Assembly: GCA_965235115.1 (NCBI GenBank)
Contig: OZ249436.1
Location: 21,020,001-21,084,000 of the forward strand
Length of the DNA: 64,000 bases
Direction of reading: 5' to 3'
DNA from: Laetmonice hystrix
Lineage: Eukaryota
In this document: positions 29,839 through 54,297 of the stretch, piece after piece
Position numbering within the stretch: position 1 is the stretch's first letter
How the letters are laid out: each line of letters opens with the position of its first letter
Notes under the pieces: model-generated
The model's input: only the letters and a program-made list of their open reading frames with translations
What the model was told of the DNA's origin: nothing
Databases searched by the model: none
Made by a program: the position numbers and the translations under genes

Positions 29839-30640
29839 AAATATTTTGGCCAAAACAAATCTTCCTTTCCCTCTTCAAAGATAAATGGTCAGCCCCAATC
29901 CGTGTGAAACACACGCCCAGTCGCCACCAAACACGTGCTTGTTGTACACGAACACACGCGCTCACAACATGAAGGACTCATGGTGTCTCACCCATGCAAT
30001 ATCCGGTCAATTCGATTTCCACACTTGGTGTGCATTGAAACCGATCCAACATCCACAAACCATGGCACTCATCTGGGTACATCAATATATGCATATTAGC
30101 TGGGGTCCGACAACAGATGCTAACTCCGTCGCCTTAGAGGTAGAGGTCCCGAGGCGCAGATGGAGTCAGCCAATAGAAACCTGATGGATGATACAGGACC
30201 ACCAGTTAGAAATACTGCTCTGAACTAGGCATGGTGAACTTACACTCAGTGCCCTGCCAAGGGACTTTGTTAGGGAATCCCAAGGAATGGATCGCCCGGA
30301 GAATCAACCTTTTAGTATAAGCATGGGGACGAGCGAACATTGCTGATTTTACTGACCACACTGTCAGCATCCTTCTTACATAAAACCCGCTATATGATCT
30401 GTGCGGCTGTGCTGAGCAGCAGAAGTCAGGAGGCTTTACAAGACTTCACTACTGCCACATACCGAATATAGGCTTCTATTCATGGGTATATCCACATTTA
30501 TATCCCGTTCTCTGAGGGGTACGCAACATCTATTATAGGAGAATATGGACCGGGAGATGTGTGTTCCATTAGACGTCTTCAGACCCATTGTACAGACACC
30601 CAGATAACCATGAGTGCTTGTCTAGACCAGCTGACCACCA

Positions 30641-30670
30641 TTTTTTTTTTTTTTTTTGTTTTTGTTTATT
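30641..30670 (-). terminator. LINE polyadenylation signal and poly(A) tail
   Basis: TTTATT at 30665-30670 (AATAAA on minus) followed by ACAAAAAC-like bases and T17 at 30641-30657. Confidence 0.85.
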
Positions 30671-30924
30671 TCCACAACAATCGCCTAGCATGGCGTTCTT
30701 CCTTGAGTGGTTAAAGGAAGTGTAACAGAATTCAACCTAGTTAAGACAATTAAGCATTAAAACACATTTTCACTTCCATCTGAACAGTAAACACAACCAA
30801 AAATATGACTTATGTACAAATGGTTCAACAAATGACTAACATGAATAAAGTACAGAATTACAATAATACAGTGGGTAATGGCCAGGAGTTAATGTACAGG
30901 AAGCAAAGGAAAATTGCAAGGGAA

Positions 30925-33779
30925 TTATAAGATCTGGTCAATGGCTCTTTTGAACGATTTTGGGCACGGAATGTGCTGAATATCAGCATGTAGCTTGTCC
31001 CATTCTTTCAAACCTCGTTGCATGGGACTTCTCAAAAAAAAGGCAGTGTGGGCTCGCCGCCGTTCAAAGCGCAGTTTACGATCACCTCTGGTTCTCTGTC
31101 TATTATTAACTATGGTTTTGCCTGCTATTGCTCTTTTATGCATTATCCGGAGTAGTTGCCTTTTCCTGCGGGTGGTTAAGAGATCTATTCCGGTTAGTGC
31201 ATGTAGTTCGGCTATGGAATATTGTTAGCCCGTAGGCAGAGGCGTAATCCTCGATTTTGGAGTTTTTGTAAGCGGTCATACTCAACGCGATTTGCGCTTT
31301 CGTGCATGAATCCACAATAATCAAAAATTGGCAGTATTGTTTGTTTGTAGATTGCTAAACATACCTCGTTTGTTAGGGATTTCCGGAGTTTACCCAGCTT
31401 AAAAATACGGTTACTTGTCTGCTTGACTACTTTGTTAATGTTTTGTTTGAGTGTTAGTTGTCCGTCTAGTTCAACACCTAGATAGCAGTAGGTTGTAGTA
31501 TGAGGTAACAGTGTATCACCCATGGTAATATTGAGATCATTCAAATTCCCGATCTTATTTAAAGCCCCAAACCACATGACCATTGTTTTCTTCCTGTTAA
31601 TGGTTAGACCATTAGTAATTGACCAGCGGTACAGTCGGTCAACATCTACCTGCAGTCGGGCCTCAGCAATAGCCGCTGAGTTGGCACTAATATACAACAT
31701 GATGTCATCAGCAAACATAAAACATTTACAGTATATGAATTGCTGAGTGACATCATTAATAAATAGGATAAATAAGAGCGGTCCGAGTGTTGAGCCTTGT
31801 GGAACCCCAAATTTGACATCTGTGACCGGTGACTTGATGTTATTAGCCAGAGTACATTGCTTCCGACCACTGAGATAGCTAGTCACCCAATTCATAATGT
31901 TGGTGGGGATACCAAGTTCCGATACCTTTCGCAATAACAGCGGGACCGAGACGCTATCGAATGCTTTTTGAATGTCTATAAAAGCTGCAGCTGTTACCAG
32001 ACCCTGATCCCTTGCAGTATAGAGGTCATTTGTGACATCAAGTACAGCGTCACTTGTGCTAAGTCCACTGCGAAAACCAAACTGGCAGGGTGATAGAAAT
32101 TCCTTTTCCTCTAGGATTGCAGTTAAATAACGATGTACGACCTTTTCTAGTAACTTGCCTGGTAATGGTAGTAGAGTTATGGGACGCCAGTTAGAAACCA
32201 TTCTCAGGTTACCTTTCTTGGGAATAGGAATTACCTTGCCCACACACCAAGCACTTGGGAATATTCCAGAGTCTAAGGAGTTAATGAAAATTGTCACAAG
32301 TCTACGGGTTAGTAGCTGAAAGGCATCCTTTAGCACTCTGGCGTTAACACCGTCCACGCCCGATGATTTGTGTACGTCTATGTCGCTAACTAATTTACGT
32401 ATAATCTGTTCGTTTACAAGCTCGGCACCACTGAGTTTAGGACCCGACAGAGAACCATCATAGTGACCCAACCACATATCGGGTTCCACTTCAGTTAGTT
32501 TCCGGAATAAGCTTTCCCCAATACCTGCAAAGTATTCATTAATGTAAGTGGCCGTTTCCGCGTGTGGAACATCGGAACCAGTGTTTTCATTTATCAGGGA
32601 GATTACTGCGGTTGCTTTACCAGGGTCAAGTATTTTGTTTACCTCCCTCCAGAATTTCTTGGGTTCGGGCCGTGCCTCTTCTAGCTTGTTCTTGACCCAG
32701 TCTGCCTTGGCATTACGCAACATTCTTTGTATGGTTCGCCTGAGGCCTTTGGCTATGGTCCACTCTGACTGGTCACCAGTGTTTTGGTAGAGTTTGATAT
32801 GATCTTTCCTATCGGCTATCGCTTCACGTATGTCATTTGTTATCCACTCTTCTGTGTGTTTCTTAACCCTGCGTGGTTGGTAGGGACAACTATAATCAAG
32901 GTAGTTCTGGATATTGTTTATCATGTTAGTCCACTGTAGTTCAGGGTTTGCAGTGCTATCAAAGGCCGACCAATCAGAGTGGATGAGGTAGTCCCACAGA
33001 TCATATGTATTGTAATTTCTATAAGACCTACCATAAAAAGACTCGTACTCTCTTCTAGTTCTGGTTTTCTTTTTGATCGCAAAGACAGGGATGTGGTCAC
33101 TAATGAGGTGGTCAATAGTACCACATGCGGAAACGACTTCACAGTTAGTTAGGATATTATCTATACATGTGCCACTTCCAGCTGCTAATCTCGTCGATTG
33201 GGTAATTAAATGTTTGAGGCCTGTCTGGCGACAGAATTCAAACATCTTTTTAGGGTTTGGGGAATTGCGCTTTTTAACATCGATGTTGTAATCACCTACG
33301 AACCATAGCTCTCTATTTTTACAGGACTCATGTTCAAGTATATATGTTAGGTGATCAAAGAAAGCAGCTACATTGCCTGCTGGTGGTCTGTAAATAGTTA
33401 CAATCATTAACTTTTTATGGTTTGGCTGGTCTACCAGGATGCATAGTGTTTCAATATCGCTGTTGCTGAGGCATAGTTCATTGACCCGACTGCTGAAATG
33501 GGTTATTTTATCCTTAAGATAACAGGCGACACCTCCTCCCCTACCACGCTCCCTATCATTTCGGTAAATTGTTCGTCCTCTCCAATACAACAGACTATCA
33601 TCTTAATTATTATTTAACCAAGTTTCGGAGATACACACAACATCGTACCCATCTAGTTGTACCTGAACATCATGCAACTTCGGAAAAAGACTCCTGGTAT
33701 TTAACCCACAGATCTTAAATCCCCTTGCAATCTCCTTTAAGTCATCCTGCTGGGTAAGCAGGTACTGAAATGTGGCCAT
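30925..33779 (-). pseudogene. LINE ORF2 (APE endonuclease + reverse transcriptase), disabled by one nonsense and one frameshift
   Basis: ATG 33779 (MATFQY...GLNTRSL...CISETWL) is in frame with ORF 31212-33590 except for TAA at 33605-33603. APE motifs GGGVA, IYRPP, GDYN, CIDNI, SDH; RT motifs WRPITLL, QFGFR, DIQKAFDSV, GVPQGSTLGPLLF, FADD, YLGV. A 1-nt frameshift near 31221 leads into YSIAELHALTG...RAIDQIL* (stop at 30925). Confidence 0.93.
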
Positions 33780-34384
33780 TTACCCATGTTGATGGTTCAA
33801 GTGATATACAATGAAAGAAATAAAGTGTTTTAAACGATTCCCTCATTGAGACTATTGTCTGAACAGGGGAGAGAAGGGTGAGGCGAGGATTAGTCTCAAC
33901 TTGCCGCACTGATCTGTTGAGTGCATAAATATATAATTAAACAGAACTACAGATTCATATATATACAAGTTAGGGCTCCTCTGCCCTATACGAAGGACTT
34001 CACATACTGGTAACAAGTTACAGATTCAAGCTGAGTGCATTAGAAAGGGCCAAGAAGGCCAAGATAATAGCACCACAATAATCACTGCATTGTGATTGTT
34101 GTGTTATACAACACGGTATACGCATATAGTACACAAGTATAGGACTTAGCATGCCATCCAAGTGTGGGTACATTTTACAATTCACTTTAAAGATGCATTC
34201 GCATATCAAGGATATCCTAAGATGTAGTTTTACACATTCCGGAATTCATTTTAGATCTTCCTATCACGGTTGTGAGTTAAGCGAATGTGCAGCAGTAAAC
34301 GTAGTATGGTAACAGTAGTCGTATACGCAGTATGGTGCTAGATTCGAATGTTACAATAATATTGCTTCAATACTTCCATTTAAT

Positions 34385-36157
34385 TTAATTAGTAACACGC
34401 AAACGTTGACGGATATCAACCAAAAGTTTACCGAGTTCATTACGACCGGTGTACACCCCCTGTGTCAGGTGTTCACTTGCATAGTTCTCGCCTGCTCCCC
34501 AGAAGGGGTCCCGGGTCGATTCGACTAGTGGTTCAGGATAAGTGCTTAATAGTTCGTTACGTAGGCGGTCATGCTGCAGGTATTTGCACATATTGATTTC
34601 CATCATTACTCTAAGGCGAGCGTTATACCAGGGATGGTCATCGGGGAGGACAACTCGTTTCCCGATCTCTAGTATTTTGTAGGGATTTTGTTCACTTAGT
34701 ACCTCTTTGCCCCTTTTGTATTGCCCACAGAAAATACATTTAGCGTACTGATATGCCATTTCATTGCAGCTAAAGTTCATAGCATCCAGTGTAGTACCAT
34801 CTTCCTTAGCAGGGGCGTATGATATGGTGGCTTCGTACATATTACTGAGGGGTGCATTGGGTCCGTTAAAGATTAGCCCCGAAGCAGTTTTACGGACTCG
34901 CTGAGTTGCGGTACTTGGCCGGTCACGATGATCGGTTGCTGCAGCATCATTTTGGCGTCCAGTGCCCTGGTCCTTGTCGGCTCCTGTACCGGTGTCCGTG
35001 TTTTCCTGTTGGAGATCACGGGCATTTATGTCTAGGCGTAACGACATAGGCATGATGTCATCCGGGAGCTGTGAACTTTGACTGATGTCGTACAGTTTGC
35101 CATTAATTGTTATTCCTTCAGCATGAAGAGAAACCTTCGCCCCCTGACGTCTGTGGTATCTGGCAATCTGCCTGTATTTCCAGCGGGTTCTCCTTATCTC
35201 TGGAGGTTCGTCATAATTAAACCACACGTGTTGGCCCTCATTTGCAAGATTTTTCAGTTTCGCCTTTATCCGCATTACCTTTTCTAAGGCAGTCTTATTG
35301 CTAAAGCATACGATGATTTTGGGAGGTCGTCCGGGGTCAAGTTTGGCGTCTTTGCTGATGAGTCTCGATATTCTTAACACGTCAGGCTCATTGAGAGTTA
35401 CTCCGAGTTGTGCTATCAGCTGCCAGAATTGTTTTTTGACATCTTCATTTGTAGTCATTTTGAGGCCACTTATGATTAGATTTCGGCCTCGGTCTTCATG
35501 CGCATAAAGAAGCCCGGCACTGTCCTTCCCTTTAAGGGCACAAGCATAAGTCTTAGTACTATTGAGCTCTTCTTTAATTGAGTATTGCGCTCTAGTCAGT
35601 TCATCTATTTGCTTCTGTTGGGAGGCTAGTTTTTTATTGAGCAATTTATTCACCTCATTACTTTCGTTTTGGTAGTTCTTATTATCAGCCTTCACTTTCT
35701 CGATTTCCGATGAAACATGTGTATACATCTGTGTAAACTTAGCATCTAACTCGTGCTGCATGGCTAAAATATCTTCCTTTTTCGCCATAGTTGAAAGTTG
35801 GTTGTTCATATTTGCAAGTAGTGCAGAAATGTTACCCAGCTCTATGTTTGTCGCAGGAGTGCAGGCGCTTGTAACAGAGTCACTATTGCTGGGCATATGT
35901 TCGGTCACACCTGGGTGATCATGTGTAATAGGTAAGGGTGTCTTTTCGGGCTCCCCACCTGTGCTCAACTCGTTGTGTGATACTTCATTATCAGACATAT
36001 TTTCACGGATTTCACTTTCAGTATGAGTATTTACATGGTCTTTTACACGTTTTGATTGGTTTCCCACACTGTTCGGTGATAGTTGGCCGGATCGCGACCG
36101 TTTTTTCCTTCCCCTAGGTTTGGTTTGCTTACCGGGGCCTACTTGCTGTTGACTCAT
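34385..36157 (-). CDS. LINE ORF1 protein, 590 aa: coiled coil + L1-type RRM/CTD + C-terminal NADAR (YbiA-like) domain
   Basis: Heptad-rich region aa ~105-205; ORF1 RRM signature RGRNLIISGL...RPPKIIVCF...VWFNYD...ITINGKLY; low-complexity linker; aa ~428-587 carry NADAR motifs PLSNMY, NEMAYQYAK, W...RLRVM...KYLQHDRLRNELLST, LVESTRDPFWGAG, GRNELGKLLVDIRQRL. Confidence 0.92.
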   Translation of the reverse strand: MSQQQVGPGKQTKPRGRKKRSRSGQLSPNSVGNQSKRVKDHVNTHTESEIRENMSDNEVSHNELSTGGEPEKTPLPITHDHPGVTEHMPSNSDSVTSACTPATNIELGNISALLANMNNQLSTMAKKEDILAMQHELDAKFTQMYTHVSSEIEKVKADNKNYQNESNEVNKLLNKKLASQQKQIDELTRAQYSIKEELNSTKTYACALKGKDSAGLLYAHEDRGRNLIISGLKMTTNEDVKKQFWQLIAQLGVTLNEPDVLRISRLISKDAKLDPGRPPKIIVCFSNKTALEKVMRIKAKLKNLANEGQHVWFNYDEPPEIRRTRWKYRQIARYHRRQGAKVSLHAEGITINGKLYDISQSSQLPDDIMPMSLRLDINARDLQQENTDTGTGADKDQGTGRQNDAAATDHRDRPSTATQRVRKTASGLIFNGPNAPLSNMYEATISYAPAKEDGTTLDAMNFSCNEMAYQYAKCIFCGQYKRGKEVLSEQNPYKILEIGKRVVLPDDHPWYNARLRVMMEINMCKYLQHDRLRNELLSTYPEPLVESTRDPFWGAGENYASEHLTQGVYTGRNELGKLLVDIRQRLRVTN

Positions 36158-36378
36158 GTCATGTAGCTTGTTTCTACAGCGTTGGTAGAGTTGATGGCGT
36201 CAGGTACATATATCCGTTGATCAGAGTCCAGTAGGGTGCCACATGTGGTATTTGGTCACTTATATCACATCAGCACATATTGGGTATAGATCCGTGTTAT
36301 TGGCGCATTGTGATTCCCCCTAGATTCCACGTAAAAAAGAAACTTTCAGGAGCCCTAAAACGCCGCGTCTCAAACGGC

Positions 36379-36388
36379 CGCCATCTTG
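36379..36388 (-). promoter_or_regulatory. YY1-type motif at the LINE 5' end (candidate internal promoter element)
   Basis: CAAGATGGCG on the minus strand, followed by a CpG-rich patch, ~220 bp upstream of the ORF1 ATG; the mammalian L1 5'UTR has a YY1 site in the analogous position. Confidence 0.55.
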
Positions 36389-36775
36389 ATATTGTATTGT
36401 GATGACCATTGATGAGTGCTGGCCACCTTTTGATGCTTGTCTAGACCAGCTGGCCACCATTAGGTAACCATTGATACTTGTCTAGGCCAGGTGACCACCA
36501 TTTGATAACTAATCAAGTATGTCTAAGCGAAACATCAAATGCAAATCTACGTTTTTTTTATAGGACATGTAATTATATCTCCGTAAGTACAGTGTACTGC
36601 GGTGTGGAGGTGCGGTATACTCAGTGTATTGTGGTGTGGATTCGCGCCAGAAGTTTGATGCGGGCAAGGCATATTATGAAGGGCATTAGAGGCATAAACC
36701 TCTATCCCCAAAGGGGGGAGGGCTGACCAAATGCCTGCCCCTCCCCCCAATAGGCTTGTGGCCTAGACTTGTATG

Positions 36776-40646: not shown

Positions 40647-42853
40647 ATGTTTTCAAACATGTCTCAAATGGGATTTAGTGACTCCATACAGGATTACCAA
40701 CTTCTTGAGTTGCTCGGTACCGGCGGTTCGCACAGGTCTATCGAGCACTGTGTCTTTCCAACAACTTGGAGGTCGCAGTGAAGATGATTGACAAGTCGAA
40801 GATGAACACAGACTCTAAGATCACGAGGGTCCGTAAGGAGCTCCAGATTCATTCGTGTCTTCGGCATCCAGCAATCGTCGAACTGTACACCTACTTCGAG
40901 GACGACTCCCACATCTACTTGGTGCTGGAGCTGTGCCATGGCGATCTCTACTCGTACCTTGGCACCAACAGAGGTCTCAGTCAGGATCAAGCCAGGGATT
41001 TCACAAAGCAGGTCATCGAGGGCCTTCAGTACCTCCACTCCAAGGGGATAATGCACAGGGACATCACCCTCCCGAACCTCCTTCTGACGTCGGACTATGA
41101 AGAGAAGATCTCCGACTTCGGACTGGCGACCCAACTTACCGGACCCGGGGACAGGCGCCTCACCATGTGCGGCACGCCCAACTACATGGCCCCCGAGGTG
41201 GTCCTGCGGGACCCTCACGGCCTGGAGGCAGACATCTGGGCTGTGGGTTGCATGCTCTACACACTCCTGGTGGGACGGGCTCCATTCAACACCCACAGCG
41301 TGAAGGCCACCCTGGAGAAGGTCGTACGGGCCGAGTTTACATTCCCATCTTACATGCCAGCACATGCTCAGAACCTTGTCCAGGCCTTGTTGAGGAAGAG
41401 CCCCGAGGAGCGGCTCACCCTTGAGGAAGTCCTGAAGCATCCATTCATGACGGGAACCTTAACGTCAACTGTTGACCTCAACCATTGCAGTGACCTCAGC
41501 GACCCACTGGCGGACAGTAATGATGTCAGCAGTTGTGACGCCAGCAGTGAAGGTCTTCCAGACGGCACGTCTTGGTCACAGGGATCATCAACCACGTCAC
41601 AGTCAGATATAGATAGTGAGGAGGGTCAGACTGTAGTGTTTAGACCATACATAACATACAACAGTCAATCTCCGAGACACGCACAGGGCTTGTATCAGGA
41701 TCCCCATGAAACCAAGTTAATCCAGGACATGTTCAAGCGTGGTTATGATCTTATTGCCCAGAAAATCGATTTAGATTTGAGTATTGTAGTCCAGGAGGGG
41801 GACTCGGGGCGTCCAAGCTCCCGACTTGACGCCCCCTGGCGGAGACCTGCTGCAGGGGTTAGTATCGAGGGGACACCTCCCAGAAACGGTCAACCATGTC
41901 CAGACGTATGCAGTGACTTCCCTGTATCATCCCAGCATGAAACAAATAACATTGAGGCTACTGGTCCAACGTCCCCCCGTGAACCCACAACGAGCCCGAC
42001 AATATCGTATGGTAAAACTGTGACGAACAAAGAAGGAAAGAGACTACGAGATTACACATCACCATTGAGTTCCAGCCGACTACGACCAATGAGACAGAGG
42101 ACCAAGAATGCTATCGTCAGCATCCTCGAGGATGGCTTTGTGCGTCTTGAGTTCACGAAAAGAACTGCTGAACAGAGTTGTCTTCTTGACACACTCAAGA
42201 TTTCACCGAATGGTCAAACCATTGAAGCCTCACGTCCAAACAGAGACGATTTCTCCACAAATGACACATCGCCAAACAGCTCTTCTCCTGCAGAAAGTAC
42301 TACAAAAACGTACCGGTTTGCTGACCTGCCAGTGAAGTACTGGAAACGCTACGAGTTCGCTGTGAGGTTTATCCGTCTGGTGAAGTCCAAGACGCCCAAA
42401 GTCACTTTGTACACCGAGAAGGCAAAGTGTATGCTTATGGAGAACGGCCCAGACGCCGACTGTGACGTCATCTTCTATGATGGCGCCAAGTTCAGCGTGA
42501 CGTCAGACGGTACACGCGTCATGGAGCAGGAGGGCGTGACACTGATTCTGGAACCTGGACGAGGAACGCAGCACCTTGGTCCATACACACAACAACTCTG
42601 GAAGTTCGTCACCGACTGCCACACGTTCTGTCACAGCCTCGAGTCGTTACTCACCTCCATAGATTACTACTCGTCCGACACTGAGCAGTTCCCGGTAACT
42701 GTCGGACGTCGGCAAGGCGTCCCGGAGGTGGATTTTGTACACAGACCAGACATTGCCACACCCATCGCTACCTATCAACCAGATCGTCTTGGGAAGTCCA
42801 GCCGAGGGCCGTGTCGATACGTCCCTGAACCAACAGAAGAACGACCTCAATAA
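40647..42853 (+). pseudogene. PLK4: Intronless PLK4-like kinase, copy 1, frameshifted in the Gly-rich loop
   Basis: ATG at 40647; GGCGGTTCGC versus GGCGGTTTCGC in copies 2 and 3 (1-nt deletion at ~40727); rest of ORF open to 42853; also a V>E change before KISDFG. Could be an assembly error. Confidence 0.85.
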
Positions 42854-45945: not shown

Positions 45946-48132
45946 ATGTTTTCAAACATGCCTCAAATGGGATTTAGTGACTCCATACAGGATTACCAAC
46001 TTCTTGAGTTGCTCGGTACCGGCGGTTTCGCCCGGGTCTATCGAGCACTGTGTCTTTCCAACAACTTGGAGGTCGCAGTGAAGATGATTGACAAGTCGAA
46101 GATGAACACAGACTCTAAGATCACGAGGGTCCGTAAGGAGCTCCAGATTCATTCGTGTCTTCGGCATCCAGCAATCGTCGAACTGTACACCTACTTCGAG
46201 GACGACTCCTACATCTACTTGGTGCTGGAGCTGTGCCATGGCGATCTCTACTCGTACCTTGGCACCAACAGAGGTCTCAGTCAGGATCAGGCCAGGGATT
46301 TCACAAAGCAGGTCATCGAGGGCCTTCAGTACCTCCACTCCAAGGGGATAATGCACAGGGACATCACCCTCCCGAACCTCCTCCTGACGTCCAACTATGA
46401 AGTGAAGATCTCCGACTTCGGACTGGCGACCCAACTTACCGGACCCGGGGACAGGCGCCTCACCATGTGCGGCACGCCCAACTACATGGCCCCCGAGGTG
46501 GTCCTGCGGGACCCTCACGGCCTGGAGGCAGACATCTGGGCTGTGGGTTGCATGCTCTACACACTCCTGGTGGGACGGGCTCCATTCAACACCCACAGCG
46601 TGAAGGCCACCCTGGAGAAGGTCGTACGGGCCGAGTTTACATTCCCATCTTACATGCCAGCACATGCTCAGAACCTTGTCCAGGCCTTGTTGAGGAAGAG
46701 CCCCGAGGAGCGGCTCACCCTTGAGGAAGTCCTGAAGCATCCATTCATGACGGGAACCTTACCGTCAACTGTTGACCTCAACCATTGCAGTGACCCCAGC
46801 GACCCACTGGCGGACAGTAATGATGTCAGCAGTTGTGACGCCAGCAGTGAAGGTCTTCCAGACGGCACGTCTTGGTCACAGGGATCATCAACCACGTCAC
46901 AGTCAGATATAGATAGTGAGGAGTGTCAGACTGTCGTGTTTAGACCATACACAACATGTAACAGTCCATCTCCGAGACCCGTCCAGGGGTTGTATCAGGA
47001 TCCCCATGAAACCAAGTTAATCCAGGACATGTTCAAGCGTGGTTATGATCTTATTGCCCAGAAAATCGATTTAGATTTGAGTATTGTAGTCCAGGAGGGG
47101 GACTCGGGGCGTCCAAGCTCCCTACCTGACGCCCCCTGGCGGAGACCTGCTGGACCTCCCAGAAACGTTCAACCATGTCCAGACGTATGCAGTGACTCCA
47201 CTGTATCATCCCAGCATGAAACAAATAACATTGAGGCTACTGGTCCAACGTCCCCCCGTGAACCCACCACGAGCCCGACAATATCGTATGGGAAAACTGT
47301 GACGAACAAAGAAGGAAAGAGATTACGAGATTACACATCACCATTGAGTTCCAGCCGACTACGACCAATGAGACAGAGGACCAAGAATGCTATCGTCAGC
47401 ATCCTCGAGGATGGCTTTGTGCGTCTTGAGTTCACGAAAAGAACTGCTGAACAGAGTTGTGTTCTTGACACACTCAAAATTTCACCGAATGGTCAAACCA
47501 TTGAAGCCTCACGTCCAAACAGAGCCGATTTCTCCACAAATGACACATCGCCAAACAGCTCTTCTCCTGAAGAAAGTACTACAAAAACGTACCGGTTTGC
47601 TGACCTGCCAGTGAAGTACTGGAAACGCTACGAGTTCGCTGCGAGGTTTATCCGTCTGGTGAAGTCCAAGACGCCCAAAGTCACTTTGTACACCGAGAAG
47701 GCAAAGTGTATGCTTATGGAGAACGGTCCAGACGCCGACTTTGACGTCATCTTCTATGACGGCGCCAAGTTCAGCGTGACGTCAGACGGTACACGCGTCA
47801 TGGAGCAGGAGGGCGTGACACTGATTCTGGAACCTGGACGAGGAACGCAGCACCTTGGTCCATACACACAACAACTCTGGAAGTTCGTCACCGACTGCCA
47901 CACGTTCTGCCACAGCCTCGAGTCGTTACTCACCTCCATAGATTACTACTCGTCCAACACTGAGCAGTTCCCGGTAACTGTCGGACGTCGGCAAGGCGTC
48001 CCGGAGGTGGATTTTGTACACAGACCAGACATTGCCACACCCATCGCTACCTATCAACCAGATCGTCTTGGGAAGTCCAGCCGAGGGCCGTGTCGATACG
48101 TCCCTGAACCAACAGAAGAACGACCTCAATAA
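45946..48132 (+). CDS. PLK4: Intronless Polo-like kinase 4 (SAK)-like protein, copy 2, 728 aa (kinase + PB1-PB2)
   Basis: PLK4-type motifs LGTGGFARVY, VAVKMIDK, HRDITLPNLLL, DFGLATQL, CGTPNY, HGLEADIWAVGCMLYTLLVG; cryptic polo box RLRPMRQRTKNAIVSIL, LPVKYWKRY, LVKSKTPKVTLYTEKAKCMLMENGP, FYDG, FPVTVGRR; 21-bp in-frame deletion in the linker relative to the other copies. Confidence 0.95.
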   Translation: MFSNMPQMGFSDSIQDYQLLELLGTGGFARVYRALCLSNNLEVAVKMIDKSKMNTDSKITRVRKELQIHSCLRHPAIVELYTYFEDDSYIYLVLELCHGDLYSYLGTNRGLSQDQARDFTKQVIEGLQYLHSKGIMHRDITLPNLLLTSNYEVKISDFGLATQLTGPGDRRLTMCGTPNYMAPEVVLRDPHGLEADIWAVGCMLYTLLVGRAPFNTHSVKATLEKVVRAEFTFPSYMPAHAQNLVQALLRKSPEERLTLEEVLKHPFMTGTLPSTVDLNHCSDPSDPLADSNDVSSCDASSEGLPDGTSWSQGSSTTSQSDIDSEECQTVVFRPYTTCNSPSPRPVQGLYQDPHETKLIQDMFKRGYDLIAQKIDLDLSIVVQEGDSGRPSSLPDAPWRRPAGPPRNVQPCPDVCSDSTVSSQHETNNIEATGPTSPREPTTSPTISYGKTVTNKEGKRLRDYTSPLSSSRLRPMRQRTKNAIVSILEDGFVRLEFTKRTAEQSCVLDTLKISPNGQTIEASRPNRADFSTNDTSPNSSSPEESTTKTYRFADLPVKYWKRYEFAARFIRLVKSKTPKVTLYTEKAKCMLMENGPDADFDVIFYDGAKFSVTSDGTRVMEQEGVTLILEPGRGTQHLGPYTQQLWKFVTDCHTFCHSLESLLTSIDYYSSNTEQFPVTVGRRQGVPEVDFVHRPDIATPIATYQPDRLGKSSRGPCRYVPEPTEERPQ

Positions 48133-52089: not shown

Positions 52090-54297
52090 ATGTTTTCAAA
52101 CATGCCTCAAATGGGATTTAGTGACTCCATACAGGATTACCAACTTCTTGAGTTGCTCGGTACCGGCGGTTTCGCCCGGGTCTATCGAGCACTGTGCCTT
52201 TCCAACAACTTGGAGGTCGCAGTGAAGATGATTGACAAGTCGAAGATGAACACAGACTCTAAGATCACGAGGGTCCGTAAGGAGCTCCAGATTCATTCGT
52301 GTCTTCGGCATCCAGCAATCGTCCAACTGTACACCTACTTCGAGGACGGCTCCCACATCTACTTGGTGCTGGAGCTGTGCCATGGAGATCTCTACTCGTA
52401 CCTTGGCACCAACAGAGGTCTCAGTCAGGATCAAGCCAGGGATTTCACAAAGCAGGTCATCGAGGGCCTTCAGTACCTCCACTCCAAGGGGATAATGCAC
52501 AGGGACATCACCCTCCCGAACCTCCTCCTGACGTCGGACTATGAAGTGAAGATCTCCGACTTCGGACTGGCGACCCAACTGACCGGACCCGGCGACAGGC
52601 GCCTCACCATGTGCGGCACCCCCAACTACATGGCCCCCGAGGTGGTCCTGCGGGACCCTCACGGCCTGGAGGCAGACATCTGGGCTGTGGGTTGCATGCT
52701 CTACACACTCCTGGTGGGACGGGCTCCATTCAACACCCACAGCGTGAAGGCCACCCTGGAGAAGGTCGTACGGGCCGAGTTTACATTCCCATCTTACATG
52801 CCAGCACATGCTCAGAACCTTGTCCAGGCCTTGTTGAGGAAGAGCCCCGAGGAGCGGCTCACCCTTGAGGAAGTCCTGAAGCATCCATTCATGACGGGAA
52901 CATTAAAGTCAACTGTTGACCTCAACCATTGCAGTGACCTCAGCGACCCACTGGCGGACAGTAATGATGTCAGCAGTTGTGACGCCAGCAGCGAAGGTCT
53001 TCCAGACGGCACGTCTTGGTCACAGGGATCATCAACCACGTCACAGTCAGATATAGATAGTGAGGAGGGTCAGACTGTAGTGTTTAGACCATACACAACA
53101 TGCAACAGTCCATCTCCGAGACCCGTCCAGGGGTTGTATCAGGATCCCCATGAAACCAAGTTAATCCAGGACATGTTCAAGCGTGGTTATGATCTTATTG
53201 CCCAGAAAATCGATTTAGATTTGAGTATTGTAGTCCAGGAGGGGGACTTGGGGCGTCCAAGCTCCCGACCTGACGCCCCCTGGCGGAGACCTGCTGGAGG
53301 GGTTAGTATCGAGGGGACGCCTCCCAGAAACGTTCAACTATGTCCAGACGTATGCAGTGACCTCTCTGTATCATCCCAGCATGAAACAAATAACATTGAG
53401 GCTACTGGTCCAACGTCCCCCCGTGAACCCACCACGAGCCCGACAATATCGTATGGTAAAACTGTGACGAACAAAGAAGGAAAGAGATTACGAGATTACA
53501 CATCACCATTGAGTTCCAGCCGACTACGACCAATGAGACAGAGGACCAAGAATGCTATCGTCAGCATCCTCGAGGATGGCTTTGTGCGTCTTGAGTTCAC
53601 GAAAAGAACTGCTGAACAGAGTTGTGTTCTTGACACACTCAAGATTTCACCGAATGGTCAAACCATTGAAGCCTCACGTCCAAACATAGCCGATTTCTCC
53701 ACAAATGACACATCGCCAAACAGCTCTTCTCCTGCAGAAAGTACTACAAAAACGTACCGGTTTGCTGACCTGCCAGTGAAGTACTGGAAACGCTACGAGT
53801 TCGCTGCGAGGTTTATCCGTCTGGTGAAGTCCAAGACGCCCAAAGTCACTTTGTACACCGAGAAGGCAAAGTGTATGCTTATGGAGAACGGCCCAGACGC
53901 CGACTTTGACGTCATCTTCTATGACGGCGCCAAGTTCAGCGTGACGTCAGACGGTACACGCGTCATGGAGCAGGAGGGCGTGACACTGATTCTAGAACCT
54001 GGACGAGGAACGCAGCACCTTGGTCCATACACACAACAACTCTGGAAGTTCGTCACCGACTGCCACACGTTCTGCCACAGCCTCGAGTCGTTACTCACCT
54101 CCATAGATTACTACTCGTCCGACACTGAGCAGTTCCCGGTAACTGTCGGACGTCGGCAAGGCGTCCCGGAGGTGGATTTTGTACACAGACCAGACATTGC
54201 CACACCCATCGCTACCTATCAACCAGATCGTCTTGGGAAGTCCAGCCGAGGGCCGTGTCGATACGTCCCTGAACCAACAGAAGAACGACCTCAATAA
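52090..54297 (+). CDS. PLK4: Intronless Polo-like kinase 4 (SAK)-like protein, copy 3, 735 aa (kinase + PB1-PB2)
   Basis: Same motifs as copy 2; catalytic VAVK, HRD and DFG intact; single uninterrupted ORF. Confidence 0.95.
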   Translation: MFSNMPQMGFSDSIQDYQLLELLGTGGFARVYRALCLSNNLEVAVKMIDKSKMNTDSKITRVRKELQIHSCLRHPAIVQLYTYFEDGSHIYLVLELCHGDLYSYLGTNRGLSQDQARDFTKQVIEGLQYLHSKGIMHRDITLPNLLLTSDYEVKISDFGLATQLTGPGDRRLTMCGTPNYMAPEVVLRDPHGLEADIWAVGCMLYTLLVGRAPFNTHSVKATLEKVVRAEFTFPSYMPAHAQNLVQALLRKSPEERLTLEEVLKHPFMTGTLKSTVDLNHCSDLSDPLADSNDVSSCDASSEGLPDGTSWSQGSSTTSQSDIDSEEGQTVVFRPYTTCNSPSPRPVQGLYQDPHETKLIQDMFKRGYDLIAQKIDLDLSIVVQEGDLGRPSSRPDAPWRRPAGGVSIEGTPPRNVQLCPDVCSDLSVSSQHETNNIEATGPTSPREPTTSPTISYGKTVTNKEGKRLRDYTSPLSSSRLRPMRQRTKNAIVSILEDGFVRLEFTKRTAEQSCVLDTLKISPNGQTIEASRPNIADFSTNDTSPNSSSPAESTTKTYRFADLPVKYWKRYEFAARFIRLVKSKTPKVTLYTEKAKCMLMENGPDADFDVIFYDGAKFSVTSDGTRVMEQEGVTLILEPGRGTQHLGPYTQQLWKFVTDCHTFCHSLESLLTSIDYYSSDTEQFPVTVGRRQGVPEVDFVHRPDIATPIATYQPDRLGKSSRGPCRYVPEPTEERPQ

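What the first reader, a model, noticed from the sequence alone, without database searches (positions are those of the whole stretch)
34385..36157. LINE retrotransposon whose ORF1 is fused to a complete NADAR (YbiA-like) hydrolase domain
Seen: the intact 590-aa ORF1 has the usual coiled coil and RRM/CTD, a low-complexity linker, then ~160 aa (aa ~428-587, nt ~34397-34876) with all NADAR blocks in order: LSNMY; E466-x-x-Y-Q-x-x-K473; W..RLRVM..KYLQH..LR..LLST; LVE..D550-PFWGAG; GRNELGKLLVDIR. Established: NADAR proteins include the E. coli YbiA N-glycosidase and the DarT1 antitoxins that remove ADP-ribose from guanine in DNA; guanine-specific DNA ADP-ribosyltransferases exist in animals (butterfly pierisins, clam CARP-1); the accessory domains I know in CR1/L2 ORF1s are PHD, esterase and zinc knuckles. 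Inference: since ORF1 coats the element's RNA, the fusion would deliver a de-ADP-ribosylase or N-glycosidase to the RNP and nascent cDNA, i.e. a transposon-encoded counter-defence against host nucleic-acid ADP-ribosylation. I do not recall a characterised example, but cannot verify novelty.
Basis: partly seen in the sequence, partly recalled or inferred. Interest (0 to 1): 0.92.

Follow-up and report, generated by a model that had tools for sequence, protein, structure and literature searches.

The report
LINE ORF1 protein carrying NADAR hydrolase
A young jumping gene in this animal genome has an RNA-coating protein fused to a complete NADAR enzyme domain, a kind that strips ADP-ribose from DNA and RNA bases; the fusion is real, old and widespread, was noted briefly in print in 2025, and its function is untested.

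Summary
Window 34385-36157 (-) is an intact 590-aa ORF1 of a 5.75-kb poly(A)-tailed LINE (30641-36393). Its parts are a disordered N-terminus, a long helix, an RRM and CTD like human L1 ORF1p, a disordered linker, and a complete NADAR domain. The NADAR evidence: Pfam E 5e-28; structural Z 19.1 to Phytophthora NADAR with ADP-ribose and 16.0 to E. coli YbiA.

The catalytic residues E466, K473 and E546 are kept across ORF1s only 25-29% identical. E546, not D550, is the family-defining Glu. This is the YbiA type, not the DarT1-antitoxin type.

The fusion is family-wide. The genome gave 741 NADAR candidates. All 21 sampled ~450-aa ORFs have ORF1 core plus NADAR, as do 143 of 151 database proteins examined (that set was chosen with a profile that includes NADAR). 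Two different LINE clades carry the fusion, and a Gypsy-like Pol in the same genome also holds a NADAR.

It is not new in kind. A 2025 Genome Biology paper notes NADAR domains in ORF1 of oyster Tx1 LINEs. The window family is a different, non-L1 clade.

Function is inferred only. My best guess (~0.4) is removal of base-linked ADP-ribose from the element's RNA or cDNA. No host enzyme that would write such marks was found.

The parts
30641..36393 (-). Whole LINE copy, about 5.75 kb: 5' UTR, ORF1, spacer, broken ORF2, 3' UTR with AATAAA and poly(A).
   Evidence: aligns at 99.4-99.5% identity to three other genomic copies (L031, L032, L033) from window 36392/36393 down to 30641; the 3' end reads ...GGAAATAAACAAAAAC(A)n.
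36158..36393 (-). 5' UTR, about 236 nt.
   Evidence: shared with copies L031 and L032 up to the point where the flanks diverge.
34385..36157 (-). ORF1, 590 aa plus stop, intact.
   Evidence: Intact in 3 of the 4 copies.
35846..36157 (-). ORF1 aa 1-104: disordered, basic, low-complexity N-terminus.
   Evidence: pLDDT 29-34, no secondary structure; poorly conserved columns.
35561..35845 (-). ORF1 aa 105-199: long helix, presumed coiled coil.
   Evidence: helices 105-123 and 127-199, pLDDT up to 90; residues 159-376 align to the human L1 ORF1p trimer at Z 10.0.
35210..35494 (-). ORF1 aa 222-316: RRM domain.
   Evidence: Z 10.2, rmsd 2.5 over 91 residues to the human L1 ORF1p central domain 2w7a. 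Many other RRMs score Z about 7.
35030..35209 (-). ORF1 aa 317-376: C-terminal domain of the ORF1p-like core.
   Evidence: strands 342-357 and helices. Covered by the alignments to 2ykp (159-376) and to the RRM-CTD structure 2ldy (224-379, Z 8.9).
34898..35029 (-). ORF1 aa 377-420: disordered low-complexity linker.
   Evidence: pLDDT below 50 for 379-418; unalignable, length-variable columns. The linker is only about 10 aa in the ~450-aa ORF1 families.
34388..34897 (-). ORF1 aa 421-590: complete YbiA-family NADAR domain. Key residues: E466, K473, W510, R514, E546, D550, W553.
   Evidence: Pfam E 5e-28. (YbiA 9.2e-6; 8bau 1.2e-3). (Z 19.1 and 16.0). (residue conservation).
33780..34384 (-). ORF1-ORF2 spacer, about 600 nt, present in all four copies.
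30925..33779 (-). ORF2 (APE-type endonuclease plus reverse transcriptase). It is 953 aa where whole. In this copy it is broken by a premature stop at 33603-33605 and a 7-bp deletion near 31226.
   Evidence: One search printed window positions one too low; they are corrected here using window = 36394 minus element coordinate.
30641..30924 (-). 3' UTR with AATAAA signal and poly(A) tail.

Best explanation
SHOWN. This is the first ORF of a young, low-copy, poly(A)-tailed non-L1 LINE. Its product is an L1-ORF1p-like RNA-binding protein: a disordered N-terminus, a long helix, an RRM and a CTD. A flexible linker joins this core to a complete YbiA-family NADAR domain whose catalytic and ADP-ribose-contacting residues are all present. 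The fusion is old, is found in hundreds of copies and many deeply diverged families, is at least as constrained as the RNA-binding core, and occurs in two different LINE clades.

INFERRED MECHANISM. ORF1p coats the element's own RNA as it is translated, as established for L1 ORF1p (recalled, not tested here). Every RNP would therefore carry many tethered NADAR domains. NADAR enzymes, including YbiA-type and one animal enzyme, hydrolyse the N-glycosidic bond between ADP-ribose and guanine or cytosine in DNA and RNA. I propose the tethered domain strips such base-linked ADP-ribose from the LINE RNA, the nascent cDNA or the nicked target, so that reverse transcription is not blocked. That would make it a built-in repair or counter-defence enzyme, working like phage AdfN NADAR against DarT1 or viral macrodomains against PARPs.

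The anatomy is near certain (>0.95). The confidence value below is for the mechanism.
For: Anatomy: (values are in the observation check).

Residue map from the HMMER alignment to 8bau and the residues named in passages of PMC11543638: E466=E43, K473=K50, W510=W89, R514=R93, E546=E125 (the YbiA-family Glu), D550=D130, W553=W133.

Conservation:
- In 13 ORF1s only 25-29% identical to the window protein, E466, K473 and E546 are invariant.
- In 25 own-genome NADAR domains and 150 database representatives: E466 25/25 and 145/150; K473 24/25 and 107/150 (plus 21 Arg); E546 23/25 and 148/150; W510 25/25 and 147/150.

Selection:
- Window ORF1 against a 60%-identical relative: dN 0.30, dS 3.07 over 458 codons.
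- Three inter-family pairs: NADAR dN 0.24, 0.27, 0.40 against core dN 0.28, 0.28, 0.55, with dS saturated.

Spread:
- 741 first-look NADAR candidates in the genome; all 150 scored are above Pfam's cut-off.
- 21 of 21 sampled ~450-aa ORFs have core plus NADAR.
- A search with the core alone gave 142 matches, 111 of them in open frames of at least 400 aa (my count from the table).
- 143 of 151 database proteins examined (the 150 listed representatives plus P0001) have core then NADAR. That list was ranked with a profile that includes NADAR, so the share is biased upward.

Independent carriers:
- An L1/Tx1-like LINE with a 446-aa ORF1-NADAR and a 1249-aa ORF2.
- A Gypsy-like Pol with NADAR between protease and RT.
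- Invertebrate nidoviruses, including one from Pacific oyster, carry NADAR in their replicase (passages).

Biochemistry from papers:
- NADARs, including E. coli YbiA, remove ADP-ribose from guanosine in DNA and in RNA, but not from phosphate ends.
- YbiA-type and a sponge NADAR remove it from cytidine (abstract).
- Phage NADAR AdfN is a proven counter-defence.
Against: - No activity was measured. All of the function is inference from homology.
- No host enzyme that would write base-linked ADP-ribose has been identified. Profile searches of this genome for Scabin-like (pierisin family), DarT and Enterotoxin_a found nothing. The controls rang nowhere and intron-split genes can be missed, so this is lack of support, not absence.
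- The domain is YbiA-type. It lacks the Asp (L544 here) and the association with DarT that mark antitoxin NADARs. E. coli YbiA is a weak RNA/DNA de-ADP-ribosylase and does not rescue DarT1 toxicity (passages). The YbiA branch is regarded as housekeeping (riboflavin damage control) in bacteria and plants (passage).
- The authors who first noted the oyster fusion suggested RNA processing instead.
- K473 is replaced in 43 of 150 representatives (21 by Arg) and D550 in 54 of 150.
Confidence: 0.4

Rival explanations
1. RNA-end or metabolite processing. The NADAR acts on an ADP-ribose- or NAD-derived group other than a modified base, for example a 5' NAD cap on the LINE transcript, or ADP-ribose 1''-phosphate or cyclic phosphate left by RNA repair or splicing chemistry. 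It would prepare the element RNA for translation or priming rather than counter a host attack.
For: The only paper that notes the fusion proposes RNA processing (PMC12477816, passage). In nidoviruses NADAR co-occurs with macrodomains, RNA 2'-phosphotransferase and 2'-5' RNA ligase, which looks like an RNA-repair toolkit (passage). YbiA itself is a general N-glycosidase on ribosylamines (passage). No host base-ADP-ribosyltransferase was found (weak).
Against: The NADARs tested so far were inactive on phosphate-end ADP-ribosylated RNA and DNA (passage). No NADAR has been shown to act on NAD caps or Appr>p in any passage I read. All ADP-ribose-contacting residues of the Phytophthora enzyme are kept, which fits either reading.
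Confidence: 0.25
2. Protein or chromatin de-ADP-ribosylation. The domain removes PARP-type marks from ORF1p or ORF2p, or from chromatin at the endonuclease nick, and so modulates the DNA-damage response during target-primed reverse transcription.
For: LINE integration makes nicks that PARPs sense (recalled, not tested here). The domain is delivered to the integration site with the RNP (inference).
Against: In the passages I read, NADAR activity is described only on base-linked ADP-ribose. Macrodomain and ARH enzymes handle the other linkages.
Confidence: 0.1
3. Non-enzymatic reader. The domain only binds ADP-ribose, NAD or a nucleotide and serves to target or regulate the RNP.
For: Some representatives have substitutions at K473 (43 of 150) or D550 (54 of 150).
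Against: E466 and E546 are kept in 145 and 148 of 150 representatives and in 25 and 23 of 25 own-genome domains. That pattern is expected for catalysis rather than binding alone.
Confidence: 0.07
4. Housekeeping N-glycosidase hitch-hiking. The domain is a YbiA-like damage-control enzyme of flavin metabolism with no role in transposition, kept by chance or because it benefits the host.
For: It belongs to the YbiA branch, which is housekeeping in bacteria and plants (passages).
Against: It has been retained across families 20-40% identical, in two LINE clades and a Gypsy Pol. Its dN is no higher than that of the RNA-binding core. That is not what a passenger would show.
Confidence: 0.05
5. Not a transposon protein. 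The ORF is a host gene, or an assembly or annotation chimera that happens to lie next to a LINE.
For: None found.
Against: The same ORF lies at the same place in four 99.4-99.5% identical poly(A)-tailed copies on two contigs. Diverged ORF1-NADARs are followed by the endonuclease start of ORF2 in 13 of 26 loci whose flanks reach only 1.5 kb.
Confidence: 0.01

Closest known systems
ORF1 proteins of Tx1 LINEs of the Pacific oyster with YbiA-family NADAR domains (noted in Genome Biol 2025, PMC12477816; main-text passage and Fig. S2 legend read)
   Same: The same fusion: a LINE ORF1 ending in a YbiA-type NADAR. This genome holds such an L1/Tx1-like family: a 446-aa ORF1-NADAR with a 1249-aa ORF2 that matches human L1 ORF2p at E 2e-106. 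Its ORF1 core is homologous to the window's (core profile E 1e-9 to 1e-36).
   Different: The window family's ORF2 is 953 aa. It is only 25% identical to that family's ORF2, over the RT core alone, and matches L1 ORF2p only at E 8e-18, so it is a different LINE clade. Its ORF1 is longer, with a 104-aa disordered head and a 40-55-aa linker instead of about 10 aa. The paper gives no analysis of catalytic residues, selection or copy number in the parts I read.
Human L1 ORF1p (structures 2ykp, 2w7a, 2ldy)
   Same: Coiled coil, RRM and CTD in the same order. Z 10.0-10.2. Foldseek E 3e-4, probability 1.00.
   Different: There is no sequence-level match: no Pfam Transposase_22 hit at E<=0.1 and no PDB sequence hit to ORF1p. 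L1 ORF1p has no enzymatic domain.
E. coli YbiA and Phytophthora nicotianae NADAR (2b3w, 8bau)
   Same: The fold (Z 16.0 and 19.1). E/K catalytic pair with 7-residue spacing. Glu in the last strand. The Trp, Arg and Asp residues that hold ADP-ribose.
   Different: Those are free-standing single-domain proteins. Here the domain is the C-terminus of a transposon RNA-binding protein. Sequence identity is 26-27%.
Phage AdfN (T4 gp30.3) and DarG1 antitoxin NADARs
   Same: AdfN is a NADAR carried by a genetic parasite and is used to remove ADP-ribose from its own nucleic acid (PMC11825919, abstract and passages). This is the functional model for the proposed mechanism.
   Different: Those enzymes have His (phage) or Asp (DarG1) in place of the YbiA-type Glu. 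They counter a known writer, DarT1. Here the Glu type is present, position 544 is Leu, and no DarT was found in the genome.
[quoted passage not shown]
   Same: Retroelement capture of a YbiA-family NADAR. This animal genome also has a Gypsy-like Pol with NADAR at aa 349-490, between protease and RT.
   Different: A different element class and a different host protein (Pol, not ORF1). The animal Gypsy NADAR has His at the family Glu position.

Membership tests
NADAR superfamily (Pfam PF08719) | Profile match above the curated cut-off over the whole domain | tested here: met
   98.8 bits against a cut-off of 35.1, E 5e-28, profile positions 9-163 of 163.
NADAR superfamily (Pfam PF08719) | YbiA fold (helical core flanked by two small sheets) | tested here: met
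   model pLDDT 85-96 in this part. Z 19.1 (164 residues, rmsd 2.7) to 8bau and Z 16.0 to 2b3w.
NADAR superfamily (Pfam PF08719) | Conserved catalytic Glu and Lys seven residues apart (E43/K50 of the Phytophthora enzyme; E88/K95 of E. coli C7 NADAR) | tested here: met
   E466 and K473. Invariant in alignment A1. 25/25 and 24/25 own-genome domains.
NADAR superfamily (Pfam PF08719) | ADP-ribosyl or N-glycoside hydrolase activity | not testable with these tools
   Needs purified protein and modified substrates.
YbiA family of NADARs | Glutamate in the last beta strand (E125 of the Phytophthora enzyme) | tested here: met
   E546 aligns to that Glu (alignment, numbering). 23/25 own-genome domains and 148/150 representatives keep it.
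DarT1-associated (BC4488 / DarG1) NADAR antitoxins | Catalytic Asp two residues before the conserved Glu position (D171 of E. coli C7 NADAR) | tested here: not met
   Position 544 is Leu. It is L or I in 25/25 own-genome domains and L in 132/150 representatives.
DarT1-associated (BC4488 / DarG1) NADAR antitoxins | Genetic linkage to a DarT transferase | tested here: not met
   The neighbour is a LINE ORF2. The DarT profile found nothing in the genome, though that search cannot prove absence.
L1-ORF1p-like ORF1 (coiled coil, RRM, CTD) | RRM followed by CTD, preceded by a long helix | tested here: met
   Z 10.2 to 2w7a (model 222-316), Z 10.0 to 2ykp (model 159-376), Z 8.9 to 2ldy; helix 127-199.
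L1-ORF1p-like ORF1 (coiled coil, RRM, CTD) | Sequence-profile match (Pfam Transposase_22) | tested here: not met
   no such hit at E<=0.1. The relationship is seen at fold level only.
L1-ORF1p-like ORF1 (coiled coil, RRM, CTD) | Trimerisation and RNA binding | not tested
   No complex prediction or assay was run.
Non-LTR (LINE) retrotransposon | ORF2 with APE-type endonuclease and reverse transcriptase | tested here: met
   RVT_1 E 5.7e-38, Exo_endo_phos E 1.8e-7 and Exo_endo_phos_2 E 2e-6 in the 953-aa ORF2 of copy L031.
Non-LTR (LINE) retrotransposon | Dispersed near-identical copies ending in a 3' tail | tested here: met
   four copies on two contigs, 99.4-99.5% identical, each ending in poly(A).
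Non-LTR (LINE) retrotransposon | Target-site duplications | tested here: inconclusive
   no clean TSD in 4 of 4 copies. The window copy's flanks share a 19-nt exact match inside a longer imperfect repeat.
L1/Tx1 clade (the clade named in print for the oyster fusion) | Close ORF2 similarity to L1-superfamily ORF2p | tested here: inconclusive
   E 8e-18 to human L1 ORF2p, against 2e-106 for the other NADAR-bearing family in the same genome. No labelled RT reference set was available for a tree.
   The 3' end is AATAAA plus poly(A), which does not fit the recalled CR1/L2 habit. More distant ORF2 relatives carry N-terminal PHD fingers, a CR1-like trait by recall. No reference tree was made.

The most novel reading that the evidence does not exclude
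Invertebrates of this lineage have an undiscovered innate defence that ADP-ribosylates bases in the RNA or cDNA of genetic parasites. Unrelated parasites have each captured a NADAR eraser to escape it: two LINE clades (in ORF1), Gypsy-like LTR elements (in Pol) and nidoviruses (in the replicase). That would be a eukaryotic counterpart of the DarT1 / phage AdfN conflict. The hundreds of NADAR-bearing ORF1s would then be the footprint of that arms race and a handle for finding the host writer enzyme.
Probability: 0.25. Interest if true: 0.85.

Novelty: new member of a known kind. Interest (0 to 1): 0.58.

Why it matters
Accessory enzyme domains in LINE ORF1 proteins are rare. By recall, esterase is the main known one. 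Each such domain says something about what limits retrotransposition.

A catalytically intact NADAR has been kept for a long time in the RNA-coating protein of two LINE clades. A NADAR also sits in a Gypsy Pol in the same genome and in RNA viruses of the same kind of host. Together this suggests that base-linked ADP-ribose, or a related ribosyl adduct, on parasite nucleic acids matters in these animals.

NADARs are absent from vertebrates (passages). Their roles in animals are described as poorly understood (abstract of PMC11125620).

The ORF1 fusion gives a ready experimental entry: a small soluble domain, clear catalytic residues to mutate, and a natural tether that points to the substrate. 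If the counter-defence reading holds, it would extend the phage-bacterium ADP-ribosylation conflict to transposons and animal hosts.

Tried and rejected
- Word-index homologue searches were nearly blind here. The full ORF1 gave 1 hit (P0001) among 7999 candidates. The NADAR part against shorter proteins gave none of 41 candidates. The origin of the domain (host gene or bacterium) is therefore open.
- Taxonomy of the database relatives could not be read. 20 representatives were looked up; 18 came from ENA and 2 from Logan, and none had a name. The protein Atlas gave only 'Eukaryota, commonest Annelida', based on 1-3 recorded members.
- Earlier findings of this scan: nothing.
- dN/dS between families: 0 of 210 pairs had usable dS. 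Sampled families are either 20-60% or 95-100% identical. Near-identical pairs have too few changes: in NADAR, 0-5 synonymous and 1-8 non-synonymous codons per pair. Among the three intact copies of the window family there are 7 variable codons, 5 non-synonymous and 2 synonymous, none at a catalytic residue.
- Expression: no RNA holder listed.
- Host writer enzymes: profile searches for Scabin-like PF22596, DarT PF14487 and Enterotoxin_a PF01375 gave 0 matches. The controls rang in no genome and exon-split genes can be missed, so nothing follows about absence.
- LTRs of the Gypsy-like element: no direct repeat of 80 nt or more within the 9.9 kb fetched, so its ends were not defined.
- TSDs were not resolved.
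- NADAR tree of 41 domains. The window family's NADAR sits in a supported clade of 11 rows (98/94). The Gypsy NADAR falls in an unresolved polytomy with the Tx1-like ORF1 NADARs. There was no cellular outgroup, so single versus multiple capture cannot be told.
- Literature searches were badly framed and returned noise. Searches were mostly author-name noise.
The presence of NADAR behind each core match was judged from open-frame length and from overlaps only.
- Rejected: that the ORF is a host gene or a chimera, and that D550 is the key catalytic residue.
Full report
**What is there.** Window 34385-36157 on the minus strand is an uninterrupted 590-aa ORF. Pfam finds one family in it, NADAR (PF08719): E 5e-28, 98.8 bits against a cut-off of 35.1, residues 433-587 on profile positions 9-163 of 163. 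The ORF downstream carries a reverse transcriptase (E 2.7e-38) and an endonuclease match.

**The element.**
- The ORF belongs to a LINE of about 5.75 kb, window 36393 to 30641. It aligns at 99.4-99.5% identity to three other copies on two contigs of the 627-Mb assembly.
- Each copy ends in AATAAA and a poly(A) tail.
- ORF1 (590 aa) is followed by a spacer of about 600 nt and by ORF2, which is 953 aa where whole and has an APE-type endonuclease plus RT.
- State of the four copies: ORF1 is intact in three and ORF2 in two.
- In the window copy ORF1 is intact. ORF2 has a premature stop at 33603-33605 and a 7-bp deletion near 31226.
- A DNA search found only these four ORF1 copies plus two short fragments at 81-85% identity. 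The family is young and low in copy number.
- Clean target-site duplications were not found.

**Architecture of ORF1.** An AlphaFold2 model built on 13 diverged homologues (mean pLDDT 68.3) gives:
- a disordered head (1-104);
- a long helix (105-199);
- an RRM-like domain and a small C-terminal domain (about 222-376);
- a disordered linker (379-418);
- a well-predicted C-terminal domain (421-590, pLDDT 85-96).

Against the PDB (Foldseek, re-aligned):
- the last domain matches Phytophthora nicotianae NADAR bound to ADP-ribose (8bau; Z 19.1, rmsd 2.7, 164 residues) and E. coli YbiA (2b3w; Z 16.0);
- residues 222-316 match the RRM of human L1 ORF1p (2w7a; Z 10.2);
- residues 159-376 match the L1 ORF1p trimer (2ykp; Z 10.0).

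There is no sequence-level match to L1 ORF1p. The protein is an L1-ORF1p-like RNA-binding protein with a NADAR domain on a flexible tether.

**Catalytic residues.**
- I read the HMMER alignment to 8bau against the residue numbers in passages of Schuller et al. 2023 (PMC11543638).
- This gives E466=E43, K473=K50, W510=W89, R514=R93, E546=E125, D550=D130 and W553=W133.
- E125 is the Glu in the last strand that defines the YbiA family.
- DarT1-associated antitoxin NADARs instead use an Asp two residues earlier, and phage NADARs use a His (passages). Here that earlier position is L544.
- The domain is therefore YbiA-type, not DarT1-antitoxin type.

**Is the fusion family-wide and selected? Yes.**
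- A protein search of the genome gave 106 matches, many at 28-36% identity across residues about 76-587 in open frames of 430-630 aa.
- In 13 of the 26 diverged loci the start of an ORF2 endonuclease lies within the 1.5-kb flank.
- In an alignment of the window protein with 12 others (11 diverged ORF1s from this genome plus one database protein), each 25-29% identical to it, E466, K473 and E546 are invariant.
- The Pfam NADAR profile found 741 first-look candidates in the genome. All 150 that were scored pass the curated cut-off, and most lie in stop-free frames of 420-480 aa.
- I fetched 21 of these. All 21 have the ORF1 core followed by NADAR, with a linker of only about 10 aa. They are mostly 20-40% identical to each other.
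- A search with the ORF1 core alone, which NADAR cannot bias, gave 142 matches. 111 of them lie in open frames of 400 aa or more (my count). At least 8 of the 31 shorter ones have an adjacent NADAR hit.
- Synonymous sites are saturated between families, so a proper dN/dS could not be obtained (0 of 210 pairs usable).
- Where it can be read: dN is 0.30 against dS 3.07 for the window ORF1 and a 60%-identical relative.
- In three inter-family pairs the NADAR dN (0.24, 0.27, 0.40) is no higher than that of the RNA-binding core (0.28, 0.28, 0.55).
- Across 25 own-genome domains and 150 database representatives, E466 is kept in 25/25 and 145/150, E546 in 23/25 and 148/150, W510 in 25/25 and 147/150, and K473 in 24/25 and 107/150 plus 21 Arg.

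**Beyond this genome.**
- A profile of the 13 ORF1s was searched against 1.84 billion representative proteins. It gave 43,682 hits at E<=1e-3 and 1,803 at E<=1e-30.
- Of the 151 proteins I examined (the 150 listed plus P0001), 143 have core then NADAR, 7 have NADAR only (some with 3-7 tandem NADAR domains), and 1 has core only.
- The profile included NADAR, so this share is biased upward.
- None of the 20 representatives looked up carries a name or taxon. 18 come from ENA assemblies and 2 from Logan.
- The Atlas points to eukaryotic clusters, with Annelida named for 1-3 members.

**Two LINE clades and an LTR element.**
- The ~450-aa ORF1 families include one with a 446-aa ORF1-NADAR and a 1249-aa ORF2. 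That ORF2 matches human L1 ORF2p at E 2e-106. This fits the 'Tx1' label used in print.
- The window family's ORF2 matches L1 ORF2p only at E 8e-18. It shares 25% identity with the other ORF2 over the RT core alone.
- The window family's more distant relatives include PHD-bearing proteins.
- The same ORF1-NADAR module therefore serves two different LINE clades. I could not name the window family's clade without labelled references. Its poly(A) tail does not fit the recalled habit of CR1/L2 elements.
- Separately, two loci encode a Gypsy-like Pol of about 1650 aa with protease, NADAR (aa 349-490), RT, RNase H and integrase. Its NADAR has His at the family Glu position.
- In a tree of 41 NADAR domains without an outgroup, the window family sits in a supported clade of 11 rows. 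The Gypsy domain falls in an unresolved polytomy with the Tx1-like ones.

**What is already known.**
- Full-text searches found one paper that links NADAR domains and transposons. This is Genome Biology 2025 on Ectocarpus (PMC12477816; passages, Fig. S2 legend).
[quoted passage not shown] - It states that the role is unclear and suggests RNA processing.
- The kind is therefore in print, in passing. Not reported in the parts I read: the non-L1 clade, the animal Gypsy case, the scale, and the residue and selection analysis.
- The library lacks most subscription journals and Repbase itself, so earlier notes there cannot be excluded.

**How it may work.**
- From papers: NADARs, including E. coli YbiA, remove ADP-ribose from guanosine in DNA (PMC11125620, passages).
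- They also remove it from guanosine in RNA, and are inactive on phosphate-end ADP-ribosylation (PMC11833690, abstract and passages).
- YbiA-type and a sponge NADAR also remove it from cytidine (PMC12945103, abstract).
- T4-like and other phages carry orphan NADARs (AdfN) that strip DarT1-made ADP-ribose from phage DNA as a counter-defence (PMC11825919, abstract and passages).
- Invertebrate nidoviruses, including one from Pacific oysters, carry NADAR domains in their replicase (PMC11848433 and PMC12377751, passages).
- Putting these together, the most likely mechanism (about 0.4) is that ORF1p, which coats the element's RNA, holds many NADAR domains on the RNP. These remove base-linked ADP-ribose from the RNA template, cDNA or target so that reverse transcription can proceed.

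Weaknesses of this reading:
- no activity was measured;
- the domain is of the YbiA type, which is a weak de-ADP-ribosylase in E. coli and is seen as housekeeping in bacteria and plants;
- no host writer enzyme was found (which cannot show absence).

Rivals:
- processing of NAD- or ADP-ribose-derived RNA ends or metabolites (0.25);
- action on protein ADP-ribosylation at the integration site (0.1);
- a binding-only role (0.07);
- a hitch-hiking metabolic enzyme (0.05).

**Verdict.** The feature is real and its anatomy is near certain. It is a new member, in a different LINE clade, of a kind noted once in print. Its function is open and directly testable. The convergent presence of NADAR in LINEs, a Gypsy element and RNA viruses of related hosts is the most interesting aspect. 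Interest 0.58.

Noticed in passing
L035:2824-7794 (+) and L036:2255-7192 (-), own genome C1:23.02 Mb and C8:28.86 Mb: A Gypsy-like Pol of about 1650 aa with protease, NADAR (aa 349-490), RT, RNase H and integrase, preceded by a ~520-aa gag-like ORF. Its NADAR has His where the YbiA family has Glu, as phage NADARs do. No LTRs were seen within the 9.9 kb fetched.
   Followed up: partly
L065 (own genome C11:29556600-29566500, minus strand); also L034 and L066: An L1/Tx1-like LINE of about 6.7 kb with a 446-aa ORF1-NADAR, a spacer of about 1.3 kb containing internal repeats, and a 1249-aa ORF2. Copies are 98.7-99.8% identical. L034 carries an insertion of about 1.9 kb in the spacer.
   Followed up: partly
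window 40784-42853, 45946-48132, 52090-54297 (+): Three tandem, uninterrupted ORFs of 689-735 aa, each with a protein kinase domain and Polo-like kinase 4 polo boxes PB1 and PB2. This looks like a tandem array of intronless PLK4-like genes next to the LINE.
   Followed up: no
database proteins P0002 (4240 aa), P0003 (1075 aa), P0064, P0065, P0084: Giant or repetitive proteins from other assemblies with 3-7 tandem NADAR domains and no ORF1 core. Their context is unknown.
   Followed up: no
window 36394-36453 and 30581-30640: The two flanks of the window LINE copy share a 19-nt exact match (CAGCTGGTCTAGACAAGCA) inside a longer imperfect direct repeat. This may be an unusually long, imperfect duplication, or the copy may have inserted into a local repeat.
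   Followed up: partly
L005 and L010 (own genome C19:23212642-23214021 and 23219074-23219478): A 61-64%-identical relative of the window ORF1 whose core and NADAR parts lie about 5 kb apart. It is probably one ORF1 split by a later insertion.
   Followed up: no
L037:3763-4407 (-) and L037:504-2927 (-): A 215-aa ORF that is almost only NADAR (Pfam E 1.5e-44, the best NADAR score seen in the genome), followed by an 808-aa endonuclease/RT ORF. It may be a 5'-truncated copy or a LINE whose ORF1 is reduced to the enzyme.
   Followed up: no
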